Below, in pieces: positions 2,707-14,443 of a stretch of DNA of 27,110 nt. Source of the DNA: a virus (lineage: Duplodnaviria > Heunggongvirae > Uroviricota > Caudoviricetes). Location of the stretch: positions 1 to 27,110 of the IMG/VR virus record IMGVR_UViG_2579778745_000003, one strand, 5' to 3'. Within the stretch, counting starts at the first letter, position 1. Every line of letters begins with the position of its first letter. The notes below the pieces were generated by a model. It ran no database searches, had not been told where the DNA came from, and was given only the letters and a program-made list of their open reading frames with translations. Made by a program: the position numbers and the translations under genes.

Positions 2707-3903
2707 ATGAGTGATTCCAGCCAGCTTCACAAGGTTGCTCAAAGAGCAAACAGAATGCTCAATGTTCTGACTGAACAAGTACAGTTGCAAAAGGATGAGC
2801 TACACGCGAACGAGTTTTACCAGGTCTATGCGAAAGCGGCACTGGCAAAATTGCCTCTACTGACTCGAGCGAACGTTGACTATGCCGTAAGTGAAATGGA
2901 AGAAAAGGGTTATGTTTTCGATAAACGCCCTGCTGGCTCTTCAATGAAATATGCGATGTCAATTCAGAACATCATTGACATATATGAACATCGCGGAGTG
3001 CCAAAATACCGGGATCGCTACAGCGAAGCGTATGTGATTTTCATCTCCAATCTTAAAGGCGGTGTGTCAAAAACTGTATCGACGGTTTCTCTGGCGCATG
3101 CAATGCGTGCCCACCCTCATCTTCTGATGGAAGATTTAAGGATTCTGGTTATTGACCTTGATCCGCAATCTTCAGCAACGATGTTTTTAAGCCATAAACA
3201 CTCTATTGGTATCGTAAACGCAACATCTGCACAGGCTATGTTGCAGAATGTAAGCCGTGAAGAGCTGTTAGAGGAGTTTATTGTTCCTTCTGTTGTACCT
3301 GGGGTTGACGTTATGCCTGCGTCGATTGACGATGCCTTTATTGCATCCGATTGGAGAGAGCTGTGCAATGAGCATCTACCGGGTCAGAACATCCATGCTG
3401 TCCTGAAAGAAAATGTGATTGATAAGCTGAAGAGCGATTATGACTTTATCCTCGTTGATAGTGGTCCTCACCTTGACGCCTTCCTGAAAAATGCTTTGGC
3501 CTCGGCCAATATACTGTTTACACCTCTGCCGCCAGCAACTGTCGATTTCCACTCATCGCTTAAATACGTTGCCCGCCTTCCTGAGTTGGTAAAACTCATT
3601 TCGGATGAAGGCTGCGAGTGCCAGCTTGCGACTAACATTGGTTTTATGTCCAAGTTGAGTAACAAGGCAGATCATAAGTATTGCCATAGCCTGGCTAAAG
3701 AAGTGTTCGGTGGGGATATGCTTGATGTCGTCCTCCCTCGCCTTGACGGTTTTGAACGCTGCGGCGAGTCTTTTGACACTGTTATTTCAGCTAACCCGGC
3801 AACGTATGTTGGTAGTGCTGATGCATTGAAGAACGCGCGAATTGCCGCGGAAGATTTTGCTAAAGCAGTTTTTGACCGTATTGAATTTATCAGATCTAAC
3901 TGA
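2707..3903 (+). CDS. parA: partition ATPase ParA (type Ia, Walker-type KGGVSKT)
   Basis: 398 aa. The sequence reads as P1 ParA (MSDSSQLHKVAQRANRMLNVLTEQ..., deviant Walker A NLKGGVSKT). An N-terminal HTH region is present. Followed by parB and parS. Confidence 0.95.
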   Translation: MSDSSQLHKVAQRANRMLNVLTEQVQLQKDELHANEFYQVYAKAALAKLPLLTRANVDYAVSEMEEKGYVFDKRPAGSSMKYAMSIQNIIDIYEHRGVPKYRDRYSEAYVIFISNLKGGVSKTVSTVSLAHAMRAHPHLLMEDLRILVIDLDPQSSATMFLSHKHSIGIVNATSAQAMLQNVSREELLEEFIVPSVVPGVDVMPASIDDAFIASDWRELCNEHLPGQNIHAVLKENVIDKLKSDYDFILVDSGPHLDAFLKNALASANILFTPLPPATVDFHSSLKYVARLPELVKLISDEGCECQLATNIGFMSKLSNKADHKYCHSLAKEVFGGDMLDVVLPRLDGFERCGESFDTVISANPATYVGSADALKNARIAAEDFAKAVFDRIEFIRSN

Positions 3904-9956: not shown

Positions 9957-10466
9957 ATGGGGCACAATAACACTAAGGGAAACCGTAAATTTATTAAGGG
10001 CCGCTATACTGCCAACGCGGCCAAAGGCGAACGACTGGTATCTTCTGAATTCCAGCTCACTTTTGCAGGCCATGAAGATATCAGCGTACTGGTTCGCACG
10101 TCGCAAATTCCTGAAATGACCCGCGAGGATGTGGAGGACTATGGTCCGAATGGTGTGAAGTTCAACCAGCACGGACCAATTCGAAACTCTGGGGAAATCC
10201 AGGTCCAGTGCGTGGAGACTATCGAAGGCGATATTCTTCAGTTCATCAAGGATCGCATTGCGGCGAAGGACTATGTTGATATCACGATGGCTGCTACCCC
10301 TGAATCCAAATCTTCCGGGGTTAACGCTGTGACAAAAGCTGCTACAACAATTGAAATGTTGGACTGCAAAATCTACAGTGATGCAATCGACTTTAGTACC
10401 GAAGATGTGACTGCCGCTGTGCGCCCGTCACTTCGTATCGTCTACAACTGGATTGAGTGGGATTAA
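9957..10466 (+). CDS. tail/baseplate morphogenesis protein (P1 21-pmgG-bplB block by position)
   Basis: 169-aa ORF starting 11 nt after the previous gene. SD aaaggat upstream. Followed by a strong terminator. Confidence 0.55.
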   Translation: MGHNNTKGNRKFIKGRYTANAAKGERLVSSEFQLTFAGHEDISVLVRTSQIPEMTREDVEDYGPNGVKFNQHGPIRNSGEIQVQCVETIEGDILQFIKDRIAAKDYVDITMAATPESKSSGVNAVTKAATTIEMLDCKIYSDAIDFSTEDVTAAVRPSLRIVYNWIEWD

Positions 10467-10485
10467 GAGTCATCCCTTGTATTTT

Positions 10486-10510
10486 AAAGCTCCTTCGGGA
10501 GCTTTTTTAT
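10486..10510. terminator. strong hairpin terminator between the convergent late operon and the hok transcript
   Basis: aaagctcc (10486-10493) ttcg ggagcttt (10498-10505) followed by a T run. On the minus strand the same hairpin lies just beyond the hok mRNA 3' fbi element. Confidence 0.8.
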
Positions 10511-10522
10511 TTGGAGAGGAAA

Positions 10523-10535
10523 GGGTGCATTGAGG
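10523..10535 (-). promoter_or_regulatory. fbi (fold-back inhibition) element at the 3' end of hok mRNA
   Basis: Minus-strand CCTCAATGCACCC is complementary, apart from one extra T, to the mRNA 5' element GGGTGCTTGAGG at 10896-10907. This is the 5'/3' pairing that keeps full-length hok mRNA inert. Confidence 0.65.
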
Positions 10536-10582
10536 ATACCTGACACACGAAGAGTGGCGAGGATCTCTCCCCGCCAGGTCTC

Positions 10583-10738
10583 TTACCTTTCAGATTCGTA
10601 GGCTGTGAAGACAGTGACCTCCGTCTGGCCGGTTCGGATTCGTACCTCGCAGAGGTCTTTCCTCGTTACCAGTGCCGTCACAATGACGGTTAAACAGATG
10701 ACGATCAGAGCGATTAACATCGCTTTTTGCTGCTTCAT
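10583..10738 (-). CDS. hok: Hok/Gef-family membrane toxin (type I TA), 51 aa
   Basis: Hand translation gives MKQQKAMLIALIVICLTVIVTALVTRKDLCEVRIRTGQTEVTVFTAYESER. This is close to chromosomal Gef/HokC (MKQHKAMIVALIVICITAVVAALVTRKDLCEVHIRTGQTEVAVFTAYESE). SD aaggagaag upstream. Below the ORF-track size cutoff. Confidence 0.9.
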   Translation of the reverse strand: MKQQKAMLIALIVICLTVIVTALVTRKDLCEVRIRTGQTEVTVFTAYESER

Positions 10739-10796
10739 AGCCTGCTTCTCCTTGACCTTTTGGTCGGTAAGAGGCTAATCTACGTATGCTAAGCAT
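10590..10796 (-). CDS. mok: mok-like overlapping reading frame coupling hok translation
   Basis: 68-aa ORF in another frame overlapping almost all of hok. Its start context GAGGCCATATCTATG parallels R1 mok GAGGCATCCCTATG. Confidence 0.7.
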   Translation of the reverse strand: MLSIRRLASYRPKGQGEAGYEAAKSDVNRSDRHLFNRHCDGTGNEERPLRGTNPNRPDGGHCLHSLRI

Positions 10797-10860
10797 AGAT
10801 ATGGCCTCAGATTAATGTTAAGCGTCTTGCAGGACGCGTAATGTTATCTGGGGCTTTCTT
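10788..10860 (+). ncRNA. sok: Sok-like antisense RNA (approximate ends)
   Basis: Plus-strand promoter TTGACC (10752-10757), 18 bp, then TAATCT (10776-10781). This aligns with the R1 sok promoter segment CTTCTCCTTGCGC...GGTAAGAGGCTATCCT. The transcript would be antisense to the mok SD/start. The 3' end is not defined by me. Confidence 0.5.
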
Positions 10861-10895
10861 CTATCTGCTTTTCGGGTAATGCCTGAAGCAGATAG

Positions 10896-10907
10896 CCTCA
10901 AGCACCC
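10896..10907 (-). promoter_or_regulatory. 5' tac/ucb element of hok mRNA (pairs with fbi)
   Basis: Minus-strand GGGTGCTTGAGG resembles the R1 hok mRNA 5' end GGCGCTTGAGG. Followed by a 10-bp stem: ctatctgctt (10861-10870) / aagcagatag (10886-10895). Confidence 0.6.
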
Positions 10908-10919
10908 GCAACGATTGTA

Positions 10920-11165
10920 TCAATGTCTGGCTTTTTTTCTATAGAAATCACCTGGAAGGGTGAATATCCACATCAGAAGAAATGTTGCAGCAAACATGAT
11001 CCCTAATGGCCAGACCGCGCCAAAGAAAATCCATACTAAGATCTCCTCTGCTCGTTCTTTGCGGTCGATATCGACAAGCATTTTTCGGCTGATCATGTAT
11101 ACACAGAAGCCAATACAAACATATCCTGCAAAAGCGATCGCTAACTGTAAAAGATCAGATTGCAT
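10920..11165 (-). CDS. small two-TM membrane protein downstream of repL (position of P1 rlfA)
   Basis: Hydrophobic spans LLQLAIAFAGYVCIGFCVYMI and ILVWIFFGAVWPLGIMFAATFLLMWIF. Start chosen at ATG 11165 behind gaggtcggag. The ORF is open to ATG 11246, which would overlap the repL end by 31 nt. Confidence 0.5.
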   Translation of the reverse strand: MQSDLLQLAIAFAGYVCIGFCVYMISRKMLVDIDRKERAEEILVWIFFGAVWPLGIMFAATFLLMWIFTLPGDFYRKKARH

Positions 11166-11215
11166 CTCCGACCTCAAACTGAAAACGCCAGGTGACTCCA
11201 GATTAGAGCAATCTA

Positions 11216-12061
11216 TCACCCTCTGAATCCTGCCGGTATACCCCATTGTTCGTTATCTTTATTTTTGGCTAAAACCGCATTAAGAGCTTCGTTTACCGTC
11301 ATGCAATGCGGCAGATTATCGAAGTTTGATATCCCGCCAATATCAGGAGAACGCTTGTCCTTCAGGTAAGCATATTTCCGCGCTGCCGCCTCTACTTTCT
11401 GCTTGAACTCATGTTTTTGAGCGCGTTTTTTGGATAACCGCAGATTGTCAGCCTTTGCTTTTGCCTCAGCGATCCATGAAGTCAATTTTTTGAGTCTGGT
11501 CGTTCCGGCACCGCCGGAAACTGATCTTTTTATTTTTTTAACTTGTGACTTCTTATTCTTTATTGCCACGTCATCCTGACAGGGGGAGGGGGTATCATTT
11601 TGACATGGGGGTGTGGATAAAAAATTAAATAAAGCCAATGTCTTAGCGAGAACAGCTTTAACCTTGGTTGCCGCTGAAGAGATCTTTAATTTGCTTTCAA
11701 TCAGCGCATTTTTGGCTTGTTGTGCGAAGGCCAAAAAGGATGGTGTAAACCGGTACAGGTTAGCGCGACGTTCACGGTGATCGCCGATAACAATCTCTAC
11801 AGACAGAATTCCTTTGTTTACAGCTTCACGGAATGCACGAACGACGGTTGATTGGCTATAACCAGTTTCTGCCGCGATCAGGCGGTGAGGCTTGTGAATG
11901 AAGTATTCACTAGTTGTTGCCGCGAGATTTGCACATTGCGACAGGATATGCCCGGCGCTACGGGATAGACCGGAGTGTGTTACAAAGCAGGCCAATTCAT
12001 AGCCAGAAAAAGTAAAATCGCTCATCGTTATACAGCTCAGGAAAGTGACTTTAGCCAGCAT
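11216..12061 (-). CDS. repL: lytic replication initiator RepL (oriL lies inside the gene)
   Basis: 281 aa. The sequence reads as P1 RepL (MLAKVTFLSCITMSDFTFSGYELACF...). Downstream of kilA in the C1-controlled operon, as in P1. Confidence 0.9.
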   Translation of the reverse strand: MLAKVTFLSCITMSDFTFSGYELACFVTHSGLSRSAGHILSQCANLAATTSEYFIHKPHRLIAAETGYSQSTVVRAFREAVNKGILSVEIVIGDHRERRANLYRFTPSFLAFAQQAKNALIESKLKISSAATKVKAVLAKTLALFNFLSTPPCQNDTPSPCQDDVAIKNKKSQVKKIKRSVSGGAGTTRLKKLTSWIAEAKAKADNLRLSKKRAQKHEFKQKVEAAARKYAYLKDKRSPDIGGISNFDNLPHCMTVNEALNAVLAKNKDNEQWGIPAGFRG

Positions 12062-14316: not shown

Positions 14317-14366
14317 AGTTACGGCCTCACAATCAGGTTTAACAACCTGCTACCCGCTGCTAAACA

Positions 14367-14443
14367 GGTGGCAGGACGTGACGGGGTTAGCAGACTGGCG
14401 ATTGTGAAACCAGCAGGCCGAAGCCTCCCCATCACGCCCCACC
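14367..14443 (-). ncRNA. c4: C4 antisense repressor RNA of immI
   Basis: Minus-strand GGTGGGGCGTGATGGGG... (from 14443) pairs with ...CCCCGTCACGTCCTGCCACC (to 14367), giving a closed stem whose outer ends are 77 nt apart. That is the reported size of mature C4. An internal GUCUGCUAACCCC is complementary to UUAGCAG-containing sites upstream (14524-14536) and just downstream (14353-14367, next to the icd RBS). Confidence 0.65.

What the first reader, a model, noticed from the sequence alone, without database searches (positions are those of the whole stretch)
10523..10907. Complete hok/mok/sok type I toxin-antitoxin locus between the late tail genes and the lytic replicon
The ORF track misses it because hok is 51 aa. 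Reading the minus strand gives all the family hallmarks:
- a Gef/HokC-like toxin;
- an overlapping mok frame;
- a plus-strand Sok promoter aligned with the R1 one;
- a 5' element (GGGTGCTTGAGG, 10896-10907) complementary to a 3' fbi element (CCTCAATGCACCC, 10523-10535).

P1 is classically stabilised by phd/doc, and I do not recall a hok locus at this position. This would therefore be an additional post-segregational killing module. hok/sok of R1 has also been reported to exclude phage T4, so a defence role is possible.
Basis: partly seen in the sequence, partly recalled or inferred. Interest (0 to 1): 0.5.

Follow-up and report, generated by a model that had tools for sequence, protein, structure and literature searches.

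The report
Intact hok/mok/sok toxin-antitoxin locus
This is an undamaged copy of the well-known hok/sok RNA-controlled killer gene. It sits between the tail genes and the lytic replication genes of a P1-like plasmid-phage, it is absent from textbook P1, and it is already present and annotated in hundreds of sequenced relatives, so it is real but ordinary.

Summary

**What is there**
- Rfam's hok/sok model scores 114.9 bits (threshold 59) on 10733-10907(-).
- The 51-aa ORF 10583-10738(-) is a Pfam Hok/Gef protein, 47/51 identical to the experimentally proven HokW.
- A 68-aa mok frame (10590-10796) overlaps hok with the same 58-nt offset as R1.
- A plus-strand Sok promoter (TTGACC/18/TAATCT, 10752-10781) aligns column by column with the R1-type and 933W Sok promoters.
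- The 385-nt mRNA folds with its first 12 nt paired to its last 13 (tac/fbi). This pairing is kept, with compensatory changes, in 48 of 49 homologues.
- Nothing is disrupted. Some relatives carry IS186 in the 3' hairpin.

**Context**
- A 693-bp segment (hok/sok plus an 81-aa gene) replaces P1's 1.8-kb pmgF-rlfB-rlfA.
- It is not new. The same arrangement is in at least 262 PLSDB plasmids and 235 of 5426 complete E. coli genomes, annotated "hokD". That is more common than the reference-P1 arrangement (99 plasmids).

**Role**
- The most likely role is a second post-segregational killing module beside phd/doc.
- Help with lysis on induction, and phage exclusion, remain untested alternatives.
- Interest is low.

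The parts
10914..10941 (-). hok/mok promoter: TAGAAA (10941-10936), 16-nt spacer, TACAAT (10919-10914), with TG at 10922-10921 (extended -10). The +1 position is G at 10907.
   Evidence: Promoter scan, 9 of 12 matches with TG. The -10 sits at the same distance from the mRNA 5' end as TAGAAT in 933W.
10523..10907 (-). Full-length hok (mok-hok) mRNA, 385 nt.
   Evidence: The extent of homology to lambdoid hokW loci is 10523-10919. MFE is -153.5 kcal/mol, z -7.9. On 49 homologues, 87.6% of cells are paired against 36-43% in slid controls, and 46 pairs show double changes against 16-25.
10896..10907 (-). tac element, the mRNA 5' end: GGGUGCUUGAGG.
   Evidence: Read directly. Pairs with nt 373-385 in the MFE fold.
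10523..10535 (-). fbi element, the mRNA 3' end: CCUCAAUGCACCC, with one bulged U.
   Evidence: Read directly. The duplex with tac is -19.8 kcal/mol. Pair 4:404 is U-A in 34 sequences and C-G in 12.
10850..10853 (-). ucb / anti-SD: the CCCC run that pairs with the mok Shine-Dalgarno sequence in the full-length fold.
   Evidence: Partners of mRNA nt 100-103 are nt 55-58. The probability of being unpaired is 0.0 for three of the four SD bases.
10805..10808 (-). mok Shine-Dalgarno sequence GAGG, 8 nt upstream of the mok AUG.
   Evidence: Sequence. Positions computed. Invariant G100-G103 in alignment A1.
10590..10796 (-). mok reading frame: 68 codons, starting 58 nt upstream of hok and out of frame with it.
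   Evidence: ORF list. The 58-nt offset equals that of the R1-type locus (my codon count on the recalled R1 sequence; the alignment is consistent). 933W mokW starts 57 nt upstream and is in frame with hokW.
10583..10738 (-). hok toxin gene, 51 aa. Its SD AGGAG is at 10752-10748.
   Evidence: Pfam PF01848 78.7 bits. phrog_251. 47/51 identical to HokW. 42% identical to R1 Hok.
10752..10781 (+). Sok promoter: -35 TTGACC (10752-10757), 18-nt spacer, -10 TAATCT (10776-10781).
   Evidence: Column-by-column alignment with the R1-type locus (TTGCGC ... TATCCT) and 933W sokW (TTGCCT/17/TAACCT). Mutating the sokW -10 abolishes antitoxin activity (PMC8621323).
10788..10858 (+). Predicted Sok antisense RNA, about 71 nt: a single-stranded 5' tail, a long hairpin and a U-rich end. 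It is complementary to mRNA nt 50-120, which include the mok SD and AUG.
   Evidence: Mapped from the annotated sokW of 933W. Fold -30.4 kcal/mol, z -4.6. The ends are inferred, not measured.
10555..10576 (-). GC-rich 3' hairpin, the expected 3' end of the processed, translatable mRNA. It is also the IS186 target in relatives and is intact here.
   Evidence: Helix 17 shows 5 of 9 pairs with double changes. IS186 end inserted here in L059, L062, L068 and L018.
10486..10505 (.). Stem-loop terminator shared with bplB. It is P1-derived and is the nearest terminator-like site downstream of fbi.
   Evidence: Terminator scan. It lies inside the P1 homology, which ends at 10508.
10509..11201 (.). The 693-bp segment that replaces the 1826-bp pmgF-rlfB-rlfA of reference P1.
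   Evidence: blastn breakpoints against NC_005856.
10920..11165 (-). orf81, a neighbour within the same segment and not part of hok/sok. It encodes a small hydrophobic protein of unknown function. Its stop codon abuts the hok -10.
   Evidence: phrog_3772 at E 5.5e-53 over residues 28-108 of the 108-aa ORF. NCBI annotates an 81-aa CDS. Found only in P1-like phages, with a 44%-identical homologue in SJ46.

Best explanation
The region is an intact hok/mok/sok type I toxin-antitoxin cassette that works as in plasmid R1.

**Proposed mechanism**
1. An extended -10 promoter of unknown strength makes a 385-nt mok-hok mRNA. By analogy with R1, where the hok promoter is weak and constitutive and the mRNA is stable (my knowledge of the R1 work).
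2. The 5' end of the mRNA (tac) pairs with its 3' end (fbi). The mok ribosome-binding site is locked by an upstream CCCC box, so the full-length RNA is neither translated nor bound by Sok.
3. Slow 3' trimming back to the GC hairpin is expected to refold the RNA. That exposes the mok start, and Hok translation depends on mok translation.
4. A convergent promoter makes the roughly 71-nt Sok RNA, expected to be short-lived as in R1. Sok pairs across the mok start and triggers RNase III decay.
5. In cells that lose the plasmid prophage, Sok decays first. Hok, a 51-aa inner-membrane peptide, is then made and kills the cell.

On this P1-like element the cassette would be a second post-segregational killing module beside phd/doc. 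It occupies the variable bplB-repL slot, where reference P1 has pmgF-rlfB-rlfA.

**Shown:** all sequence and structure elements, and their conservation.
**Inferred:** transcription, 3' processing, toxicity, and the biological role.
For: - **Family membership.** Rfam 114.9 bits. Pfam HOK_GEF 78.7 bits.
- **Closest proven relative.** 86.5% nucleotide identity over the whole mRNA to hokW-sokW of 933W/Sp5, and 47/51 identical toxin. hokW-sokW was shown experimentally to be a toxin plus an RNase III- and Hfq-dependent RNA antitoxin (PMC8621323).
- **End pairing.** Present in the MFE fold, z -7.9. Kept in 48 of 49 non-redundant homologues, with U:A to C:G compensation.
- **Whole-fold covariation.** Far above the slid and shuffled controls.
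- **mok SD.** Sequestered in the full-length fold.
- **Sok.** The promoter aligns with the R1-type and 933W promoters. The predicted fold has a 5' tail plus a terminator hairpin.
- **Integrity.** The copy is uninterrupted, whereas some relatives carry IS186 in the 3' hairpin.
- **Context.**
  - The element is a low-copy plasmid prophage by homology. A C4 RNA is in the window, and parA, parB and a RepFIB RepA lie just beyond the tail genes in the near-identical MH422554, which also carries phd and doc.
  - The mechanism and its defining elements are as summarised in PMC9841398.
Against: - No expression, toxicity or stability data exist for this copy.
- MFE folding of the 3'-trimmed RNA (nt 1-352) did not open the mok SD or form a tac/ucb stem, so the activation step is not reproduced in silico.
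- The Sok -10 (TAATCT) matches the consensus at only 3 of 6 positions, and the generic scan missed the promoter.
- The closest characterised homologue, hokW-sokW, was linked to lysis on induction and not to stabilisation.
- Copies in P1-like elements are at least 99% identical, so selection within this clade cannot be read from the sequences.
- E. coli genomes carry a median of two related loci, whose Sok RNAs might cross-protect.
Confidence: 0.8

Rival explanations
1. **Lysis helper coupled to induction.** The cassette mainly serves the lytic cycle, as hokW-sokW does in prophage Sp5. After C1 inactivation, transcription of kilA-repL-orf81 runs into the hok leader and collides with the convergent Sok promoter. 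Sok falls, Hok is made, and membrane damage advances lysis or phage release.
For: - hokW-sokW (87% identical) loses Sok RNA and makes HokW on prophage induction. Deleting it halves phage release (PMC8621323).
- hok lies on the same strand directly downstream of repL and orf81.
- The orf81 stop codon (10922-10920) abuts the hok -10. Only a weak terminator-like site (10963-10948) lies between repL and hok.
- Part of the C1 operator Orlf survives at 11202-11212.
Against: - Read-through is inferred from the lack of a terminator and has not been observed.
- The effect of a 5'-extended transcript on tac/fbi control is unknown.
- P1-like phages already have an elaborate lysis system (holins, antiholin, SAR endolysin; from the abstract of PMC9025707 listed).
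- Reference P1 lyses normally without hok.
Confidence: 0.25
2. **Abortive-infection defence.** The cassette protects the lysogen population from other phages. Host transcription shut-off by an invader stops Sok synthesis, and Hok kills the infected cell.
For: - R1 hok/sok was reported to exclude T4 (Pecota and Wood 1996; from my own knowledge, not retrieved here).
- The locus sits in a known variable cargo slot of P1-like elements (PMC9603915).
Against: - No PADLOC defence model matches Hok or orf81.
- No neighbouring defence genes were found.
- The reported T4 effect for R1 was modest (my recollection).
- Nothing in the sequence distinguishes this role from plasmid stabilisation.
Confidence: 0.12
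3. **Silent passenger.** The locus is intact in sequence but has no phenotype, as proposed for most chromosomal hok loci. It is simply carried along in a recombination hotspot.
For: - The slot is highly variable. RCS47 and SJ46 have lost the hok ORF and the Sok -35 and keep only the rest of the hok leader (with the Sok -10 and Sok body) and part of orf81.
- Some P1-like contigs carry IS186 that cuts off fbi.
- Reference P1 and P7 do well without the locus.
Against: - Every regulatory element is intact here.
- The arrangement is the commonest one in the slot: 262 plasmids against 99.
- The near relative hokW is toxic and is controlled by its Sok.
Confidence: 0.1

Closest known systems
hokW-mokW-sokW of Stx phages 933W / Sp5 (AF125520; PMC8621323)
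   Same: - 86.5% nucleotide identity across exactly the hok mRNA plus its -10 (window 10523-10919).
- Toxin 47/51 identical.
- Same mRNA 5' end, fbi, 3' hairpin, Sok terminator hairpin and promoter positions.
   Different: - One extra base (GGTCAA against GG-CAA) puts mok out of frame with hok here, as in R1. 933W mokW is an in-frame N-terminal extension of HokW.
- The Sok promoter spacer is 18 nt here and 17 nt there, with a better -35 here.
- The target of the Sok 5' tail differs.
- The host element is a plasmid prophage, not an integrated lambdoid phage.
hok/sok (parB) of plasmid R1 and IncF plasmids
   Same: - Same parts in the same order: tac, ucb, mok SD, mok with a 58-nt offset, hok, GC hairpin, fbi.
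- The Sok promoter aligns column by column.
- The mechanism is as summarised in PMC9841398.
   Different: - Only 42% amino-acid identity.
- The leader here has a roughly 19-nt longer Sok/leader hairpin.
- The tac/fbi duplex has one bulge.
hokD (relF) of E. coli K-12, the name NCBI's annotation gives this gene
   Same: The toxin sequence is close to this one. RefSeq labels this exact arrangement 'type I toxin-antitoxin system toxin HokD'.
   Different: - From my own knowledge (Pedersen and Gerdes 1999, not retrieved): K-12 hokD lacks its own mok/sok/tac region. The locus here has all of them.
- The NCBIfam Hok models score below their cut-offs here (49.5 against 73), so the 'HokD' label is nominal.
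phd/doc of P1
   Same: Plasmid-prophage addiction by post-segregational killing. It is present on the same kind of element (PMC9603915 lists phd and doc among the fully conserved genes).
   Different: It is a type II protein-protein system that is unrelated in sequence and mechanism.

Membership tests
hok/sok type I toxin-antitoxin family | Small Hok/Gef membrane toxin ORF of about 50 aa | tested here: met
   Pfam PF01848 78.7 bits against a cut-off of 22, covering profile positions 1-42 of 42. phrog_251 at E 4.9e-32.
hok/sok type I toxin-antitoxin family | hok mRNA leader that fits the family covariance model | tested here: met
   RF01794 114.9 bits against a gathering score of 59, model positions 1-157 of 157. 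The match is on the mRNA strand.
hok/sok type I toxin-antitoxin family | mok frame with its own SD, starting upstream of hok and translated across the hok start | tested here: met
   ORF 10590-10796(-). GAGG lies 8 nt upstream of the AUG. The offset to hok is 58 nt, as in the R1-type locus.
hok/sok type I toxin-antitoxin family | Convergent Sok gene: a promoter on the opposite strand, and an RNA complementary to the mok translation-initiation region with a single-stranded 5' tail and a terminator hairpin | tested here: met
   TTGACC/18/TAATCT aligns with the R1-type and 933W promoters. Met at sequence level only; no transcript data.
hok/sok type I toxin-antitoxin family | tac/fbi pairing of the mRNA 5' and 3' ends | tested here: met
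   Present in the MFE fold. -19.8 kcal/mol, kept in 48 of 49 homologues. Compensatory U:A to C:G changes.
hok/sok type I toxin-antitoxin family | mok SD sequestered by an upstream complementary box in the full-length mRNA | tested here: met
   SD nt 100-103 pair with nt 55-58. The unpaired probability is about 0 for three of the four bases. Helix 5 is 93% paired across homologues.
hok/sok type I toxin-antitoxin family | 3' processing triggers refolding (tac/ucb stem) that frees the mok SD | tested here: inconclusive
   The MFE fold of nt 1-352 keeps the SD paired and folds tac locally. Thermodynamic prediction cannot settle a kinetic, experimentally defined switch.
hok/sok type I toxin-antitoxin family | Hok toxicity, neutralisation by Sok, RNase III cleavage, and post-segregational killing | not testable with these tools
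   Shown only for the homologues hokW-sokW (PMC8621323) and R1 (PMC9841398).
Reference phage P1 / P7 gene order | pmgF-rlfB-rlfA between bplB and repL | tested here: not met
   P1 homology stops at 10508 and resumes at 11202. 693 bp replace 1826 bp.
Catalogued anti-phage defence systems (PADLOC 2.0) | A protein matching a defence-system model | tested here: not met
   No hit for Hok or orf81 at E <= 0.01. This says nothing about an abortive-infection activity of hok/sok itself.

The most novel reading that the evidence does not exclude
In P1-like plasmid-phages the cassette is wired to the lytic switch.
- It sits directly downstream of the C1-repressed kilA-repL-orf81 unit, with no strong terminator in between.
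- Induction would therefore send transcription into the hok leader and against the Sok promoter. That would turn a plasmid-addiction module into an induction-triggered membrane-damage timer, one locus serving both life styles.
- orf81, a small membrane protein always found next to the locus, might take part.
Probability: 0.15. Interest if true: 0.5.

Novelty: already known. Interest (0 to 1): 0.2.

Why it matters
**Annotation.** The mok frame, the Sok RNA and the mRNA elements are missing from the public records I examined. Those records list only a 'hokD' or 'MokW' CDS.

**The P1 reference.** Textbook P1 is atypical here. Most sequenced P1-like plasmids carry hok/sok, not pmgF-rlfB-rlfA, in this slot. 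This bears on how stably these carriers of resistance genes persist.

**Open question.** I found no functional study of the locus on a P1-like element. Whether it stabilises the plasmid, helps lysis or excludes other phages is open and easy to test, but any answer would extend a well-understood family rather than reveal a new one.

Tried and rejected
- **Generic promoter scan.** It found the hok promoter but not the Sok promoter, which matches only 8 of 12 consensus positions. I settled this by alignment to annotated and experimentally supported homologues.
- **MFE fold of the 3'-trimmed mRNA.** It did not reproduce the published open conformation. I left this as inconclusive and did not read it as a defect.
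- **NCBIfam Hok models.** They score below their cut-offs, so I did not use the 'HokD' name as evidence of subgroup.
- **PADLOC.** No hits.
- **Low-threshold Rfam scan of 10400-11300.** It added only sub-threshold chance matches.
- **Literature searches.**
  - I looked for hok on P1-like, IncY or Punavirus elements (one search failed with a term-length error and returned nothing).
  - These found only a passing 'antibacterial toxin' remark (PMC6906374) and the 'variable region 5' description (PMC9603915). Other 'hok' hits concerned IncF, IncI2 or IncK plasmids, or reference lists.
- **Disrupted locus.** I considered this and rejected it, because the IS186 insertions seen in relatives are absent here.
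- **The 108-aa ORF as part of the cassette.** I considered this and rejected it. Homology to lambdoid hok loci stops at 10919. The real gene is an 81-aa P1-lineage gene.

Full report
**1. The observation**

- The ORF list gives a 51-aa ORF at 10583-10738(-) and an overlapping 68-aa ORF at 10590-10796(-).
- A gathering-threshold Rfam scan of the whole window returns three hits. One is RF01794 'sok' on 10733-10907(-), at 114.9 bits against a threshold of 59, E 8.5e-26, covering the full model.
- The 51-aa product matches Pfam HOK_GEF at 78.7 bits against a cut-off of 22. It also matches PHROG 251 'MokW-like host killing'.
- None of this can be chance.
- One caveat applies. The Rfam model scores on the hok-mRNA strand and spans the mRNA 5' end to the hok AUG. 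It therefore documents the leader, and documents Sok only as its complement.

**2. Anatomy**

*hok promoter.* The promoter scan finds TAGAAA-16-TACAAT with an upstream TG at 10941-10914(-). This places +1 at the G of 10907.

*Full-length mRNA.*
- The 385-nt RNA 10907->10523 folds at -153.5 kcal/mol, against -108.1 +/- 5.8 for shuffles (z -7.9).
- Nt 1-12 pair with nt 373-385, with one bulge.
- In this fold the mok Shine-Dalgarno GAGG (10808-10805) is paired to CCCC (10853-10850).

*Sok.*
- On the plus strand, TTGACC (10752-10757), an 18-nt spacer and TAATCT (10776-10781) precede a start near 10788.
- These hexamers align column by column with those of an R1-type IncFII locus (TTGCGC ... TATCCT) and of 933W sokW (TTGCCT/17/TAACCT).
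- The -10 of sokW has been mutated experimentally, with loss of antitoxin activity (PMC8621323).
- The predicted Sok (10788 to about 10858) folds into a free 5' tail, a long hairpin and a U-rich end, at -30.4 kcal/mol, z -4.6.
- It covers the mok SD and AUG.

*mok.*
- It starts 58 nt before hok and is out of frame, which equals the offset I count for R1.
- In 933W a one-base difference (GG-CAA against GGTCAA) makes 'mokW' an in-frame extension of HokW.

**3. Conservation test**

- I collected hok loci from one genome per species and from IMG/VR and reduced them to 49 non-redundant full-length mRNAs, 61-88% identical to the window.
- The 5'/3' duplex is predicted in 48 of the 49. The exception has a mutated 5' end.
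- Photorhabdus copies have GGGCGC...GCGCCC where Escherichia copies have GGGUGC...GCACCC. This is a compensatory change (12 C:G against 34 U:A at pair 4:404).
- Over the whole window-derived fold:
  - 87.6% of cells form standard pairs, against 36-43% when partners are slid.
  - 46 pairs show changes on both sides, against 16-25.
  - No shuffle reaches the observed values on four of the five measures (the number of further pair types is matched in 87 of 500 shuffles).
- The fold was derived from one of the aligned sequences, which inflates 'cells paired'. That does not explain the excess of double changes.
- This repeats what is established for the family (PMC9841398). It shows that the window copy conforms.

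**4. Integrity**

- Three P1-like IMG/VR contigs and a chromosomal hokC-type locus carry what I recognise as the IS186 terminal repeat. It is inserted after GGGGAGAGATCC in the 3' GC hairpin, which removes fbi.
- This is the same site as the IS186B insertion described for pSvP1 (PMC6906374).
- The window copy is uninterrupted.
- The toxin is 47/51 identical to HokW and 42% identical to R1 Hok.
- One step was not reproduced. MFE folding of the 3'-trimmed RNA (nt 1-352) keeps the mok SD paired. I treat this as a limit of the method.

**5. Context**

- The window is a P1-like plasmid prophage. C4 RNA and its a1/b1 targets are at 14364-14570(-).
- The flanks are 97.6-99.4% identical to P1-like phage records, in the order 22, 21, pmgG, bplB | repL, kilA, ant.
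- Against NC_005856, homology stops at 10508 and resumes at 11202. So 693 bp replace the 1826 bp that hold pmgF, rlfB and rlfA.
- The right junction falls inside the C1 operator Orlf. ATTGCTCTAAT is kept and the rest differs.
- Homology to lambdoid hokW loci covers exactly 10523-10919.
- The rest of the segment is an 81-aa gene (10920-11165). It matches phrog_3772, has unknown function, and is found only in P1-like phages.
- Its stop codon abuts the hok -10. Only a weak terminator-like site lies between repL and hok.

**6. Prevalence and prior knowledge**

- The 901-bp stretch 10400-11300, which includes both flanks, is covered at 80% or more in:
  - 262 PLSDB plasmids;
  - 235 of 5426 complete E. 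coli genomes.
- The top 40 plasmid hits and top 12 genome hits shown are 99.6-99.9% identical.
- The reference-P1 arrangement is found in 99 plasmids.
- RefSeq labels the gene 'type I toxin-antitoxin system toxin HokD'. GenBank MH422554 labels it 'MokW'.
- That same phage record also encodes Phd and Doc.
- RCS47 and SJ46 hold other cargo in the slot. They keep only the hok leader/Sok body and part of orf81.
- Published work calls rlfA-rlfB-pmgF 'variable region 5' of P1-like plasmids (PMC9603915). [quoted passage not shown]
- I found no functional study of the locus on a P1-like element.

**7. Mechanism and role**

- The best-supported mechanism is the R1 one: a stable, self-locked mRNA, slow 3' activation, mok-coupled Hok translation, and an unstable Sok RNA that directs RNase III decay (PMC9841398).
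- For a low-copy plasmid prophage the natural role is post-segregational killing, added to phd/doc. I give about 0.8 to 'a functional hok/sok cassette working this way', and roughly 0.5 to plasmid stabilisation as its main role.
- There are three rivals, and they are not mutually exclusive:
  - a lysis helper coupled to induction, as for hokW-sokW in Sp5, made plausible by the position just downstream of repL-orf81;
  - abortive-infection defence, by analogy with R1 against T4 (my own knowledge);
  - a silent passenger.

**8. Verdict**

The observation and the identification are correct and the locus is intact. It belongs to a thoroughly studied family and is already annotated in hundreds of near-identical records. 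Interest is low. What remains open is which of the known hok/sok roles it plays in a plasmid-phage.

Noticed in passing
L004 (RCS47) 2974-3233; L005 (SJ46) 2974-3226; equivalent to window 10776-11035: In the same bplB-repL slot, RCS47 and SJ46 keep only the hok leader/Sok body and the 3' part of orf81. The hok ORF and the Sok -35 are replaced by a plus-strand gene of about 200 aa, and RCS47 also has an IS605-family element. These look like orphan sok remnants, which suggests the hok/sok arrangement is old in this lineage and decays.
   Followed up: partly
window 10555-10576; L059, L062, L068 and L018 at about 878: The GC-rich hairpin after hok is an IS186 insertion site in relatives. The end sequence CATAAGCGCTAACTTAAGGGTTG follows GGGGAGAGATCC, which cuts fbi off the mRNA. 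The same site and direct repeat (GGATCTCTCC) were reported for pSvP1. The window copy is intact. I identified the IS186 end from memory of its terminal repeat.
   Followed up: partly
window 10781-10808: Among 21 close homologues (84-100% identical overall), the least conserved stretch of the mRNA is nt 100-127. This is the target of the Sok 5' tail around the mok start. The pattern is consistent with diversification of Sok specificity among the several hok loci that co-reside in one cell (median 2 per E. coli genome).
   Followed up: partly
window 10920-11165 (-), inside the 108-aa ORF 10920-11246: orf81 encodes a small hydrophobic protein (phrog_3772, unknown function). It is restricted to P1-like phages, always lies between repL and hok, and has a 44%-identical homologue in SJ46. 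Its stop codon touches the hok -10, so its transcript must read into the hok leader.
   Followed up: partly
window 11196-11212: The junction with P1 homology falls inside the C1 operator Orlf (Op55). The core ATTGCTCTAAT is kept and the last six bases differ from P1. Whether C1 still binds, and what it would control here, is unknown.
   Followed up: no
window 10733-10907: Rfam RF01794, named 'sok antitoxin', scores on the hok-mRNA strand. Its consensus runs from the mRNA 5' end to the hok AUG. Automated annotation with it would therefore place 'sok' on the wrong strand.
   Followed up: yes
bplB-repL slot, PLSDB-wide: The reference P1 filling of the slot (pmgF-rlfB-rlfA) is the minority. 99 plasmids carry it, against 262 with hok/sok plus orf81, out of about 700 plasmids that match the flanks.
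   Followed up: yes
window 14364-14449 (-) and 14518-14570 (-): The C4 antisense RNA and its a1/b1 target sites of the P1 immI region both score above the Rfam gathering thresholds. This confirms the P1-like immunity region next to ant, kilA and repL.
   Followed up: no
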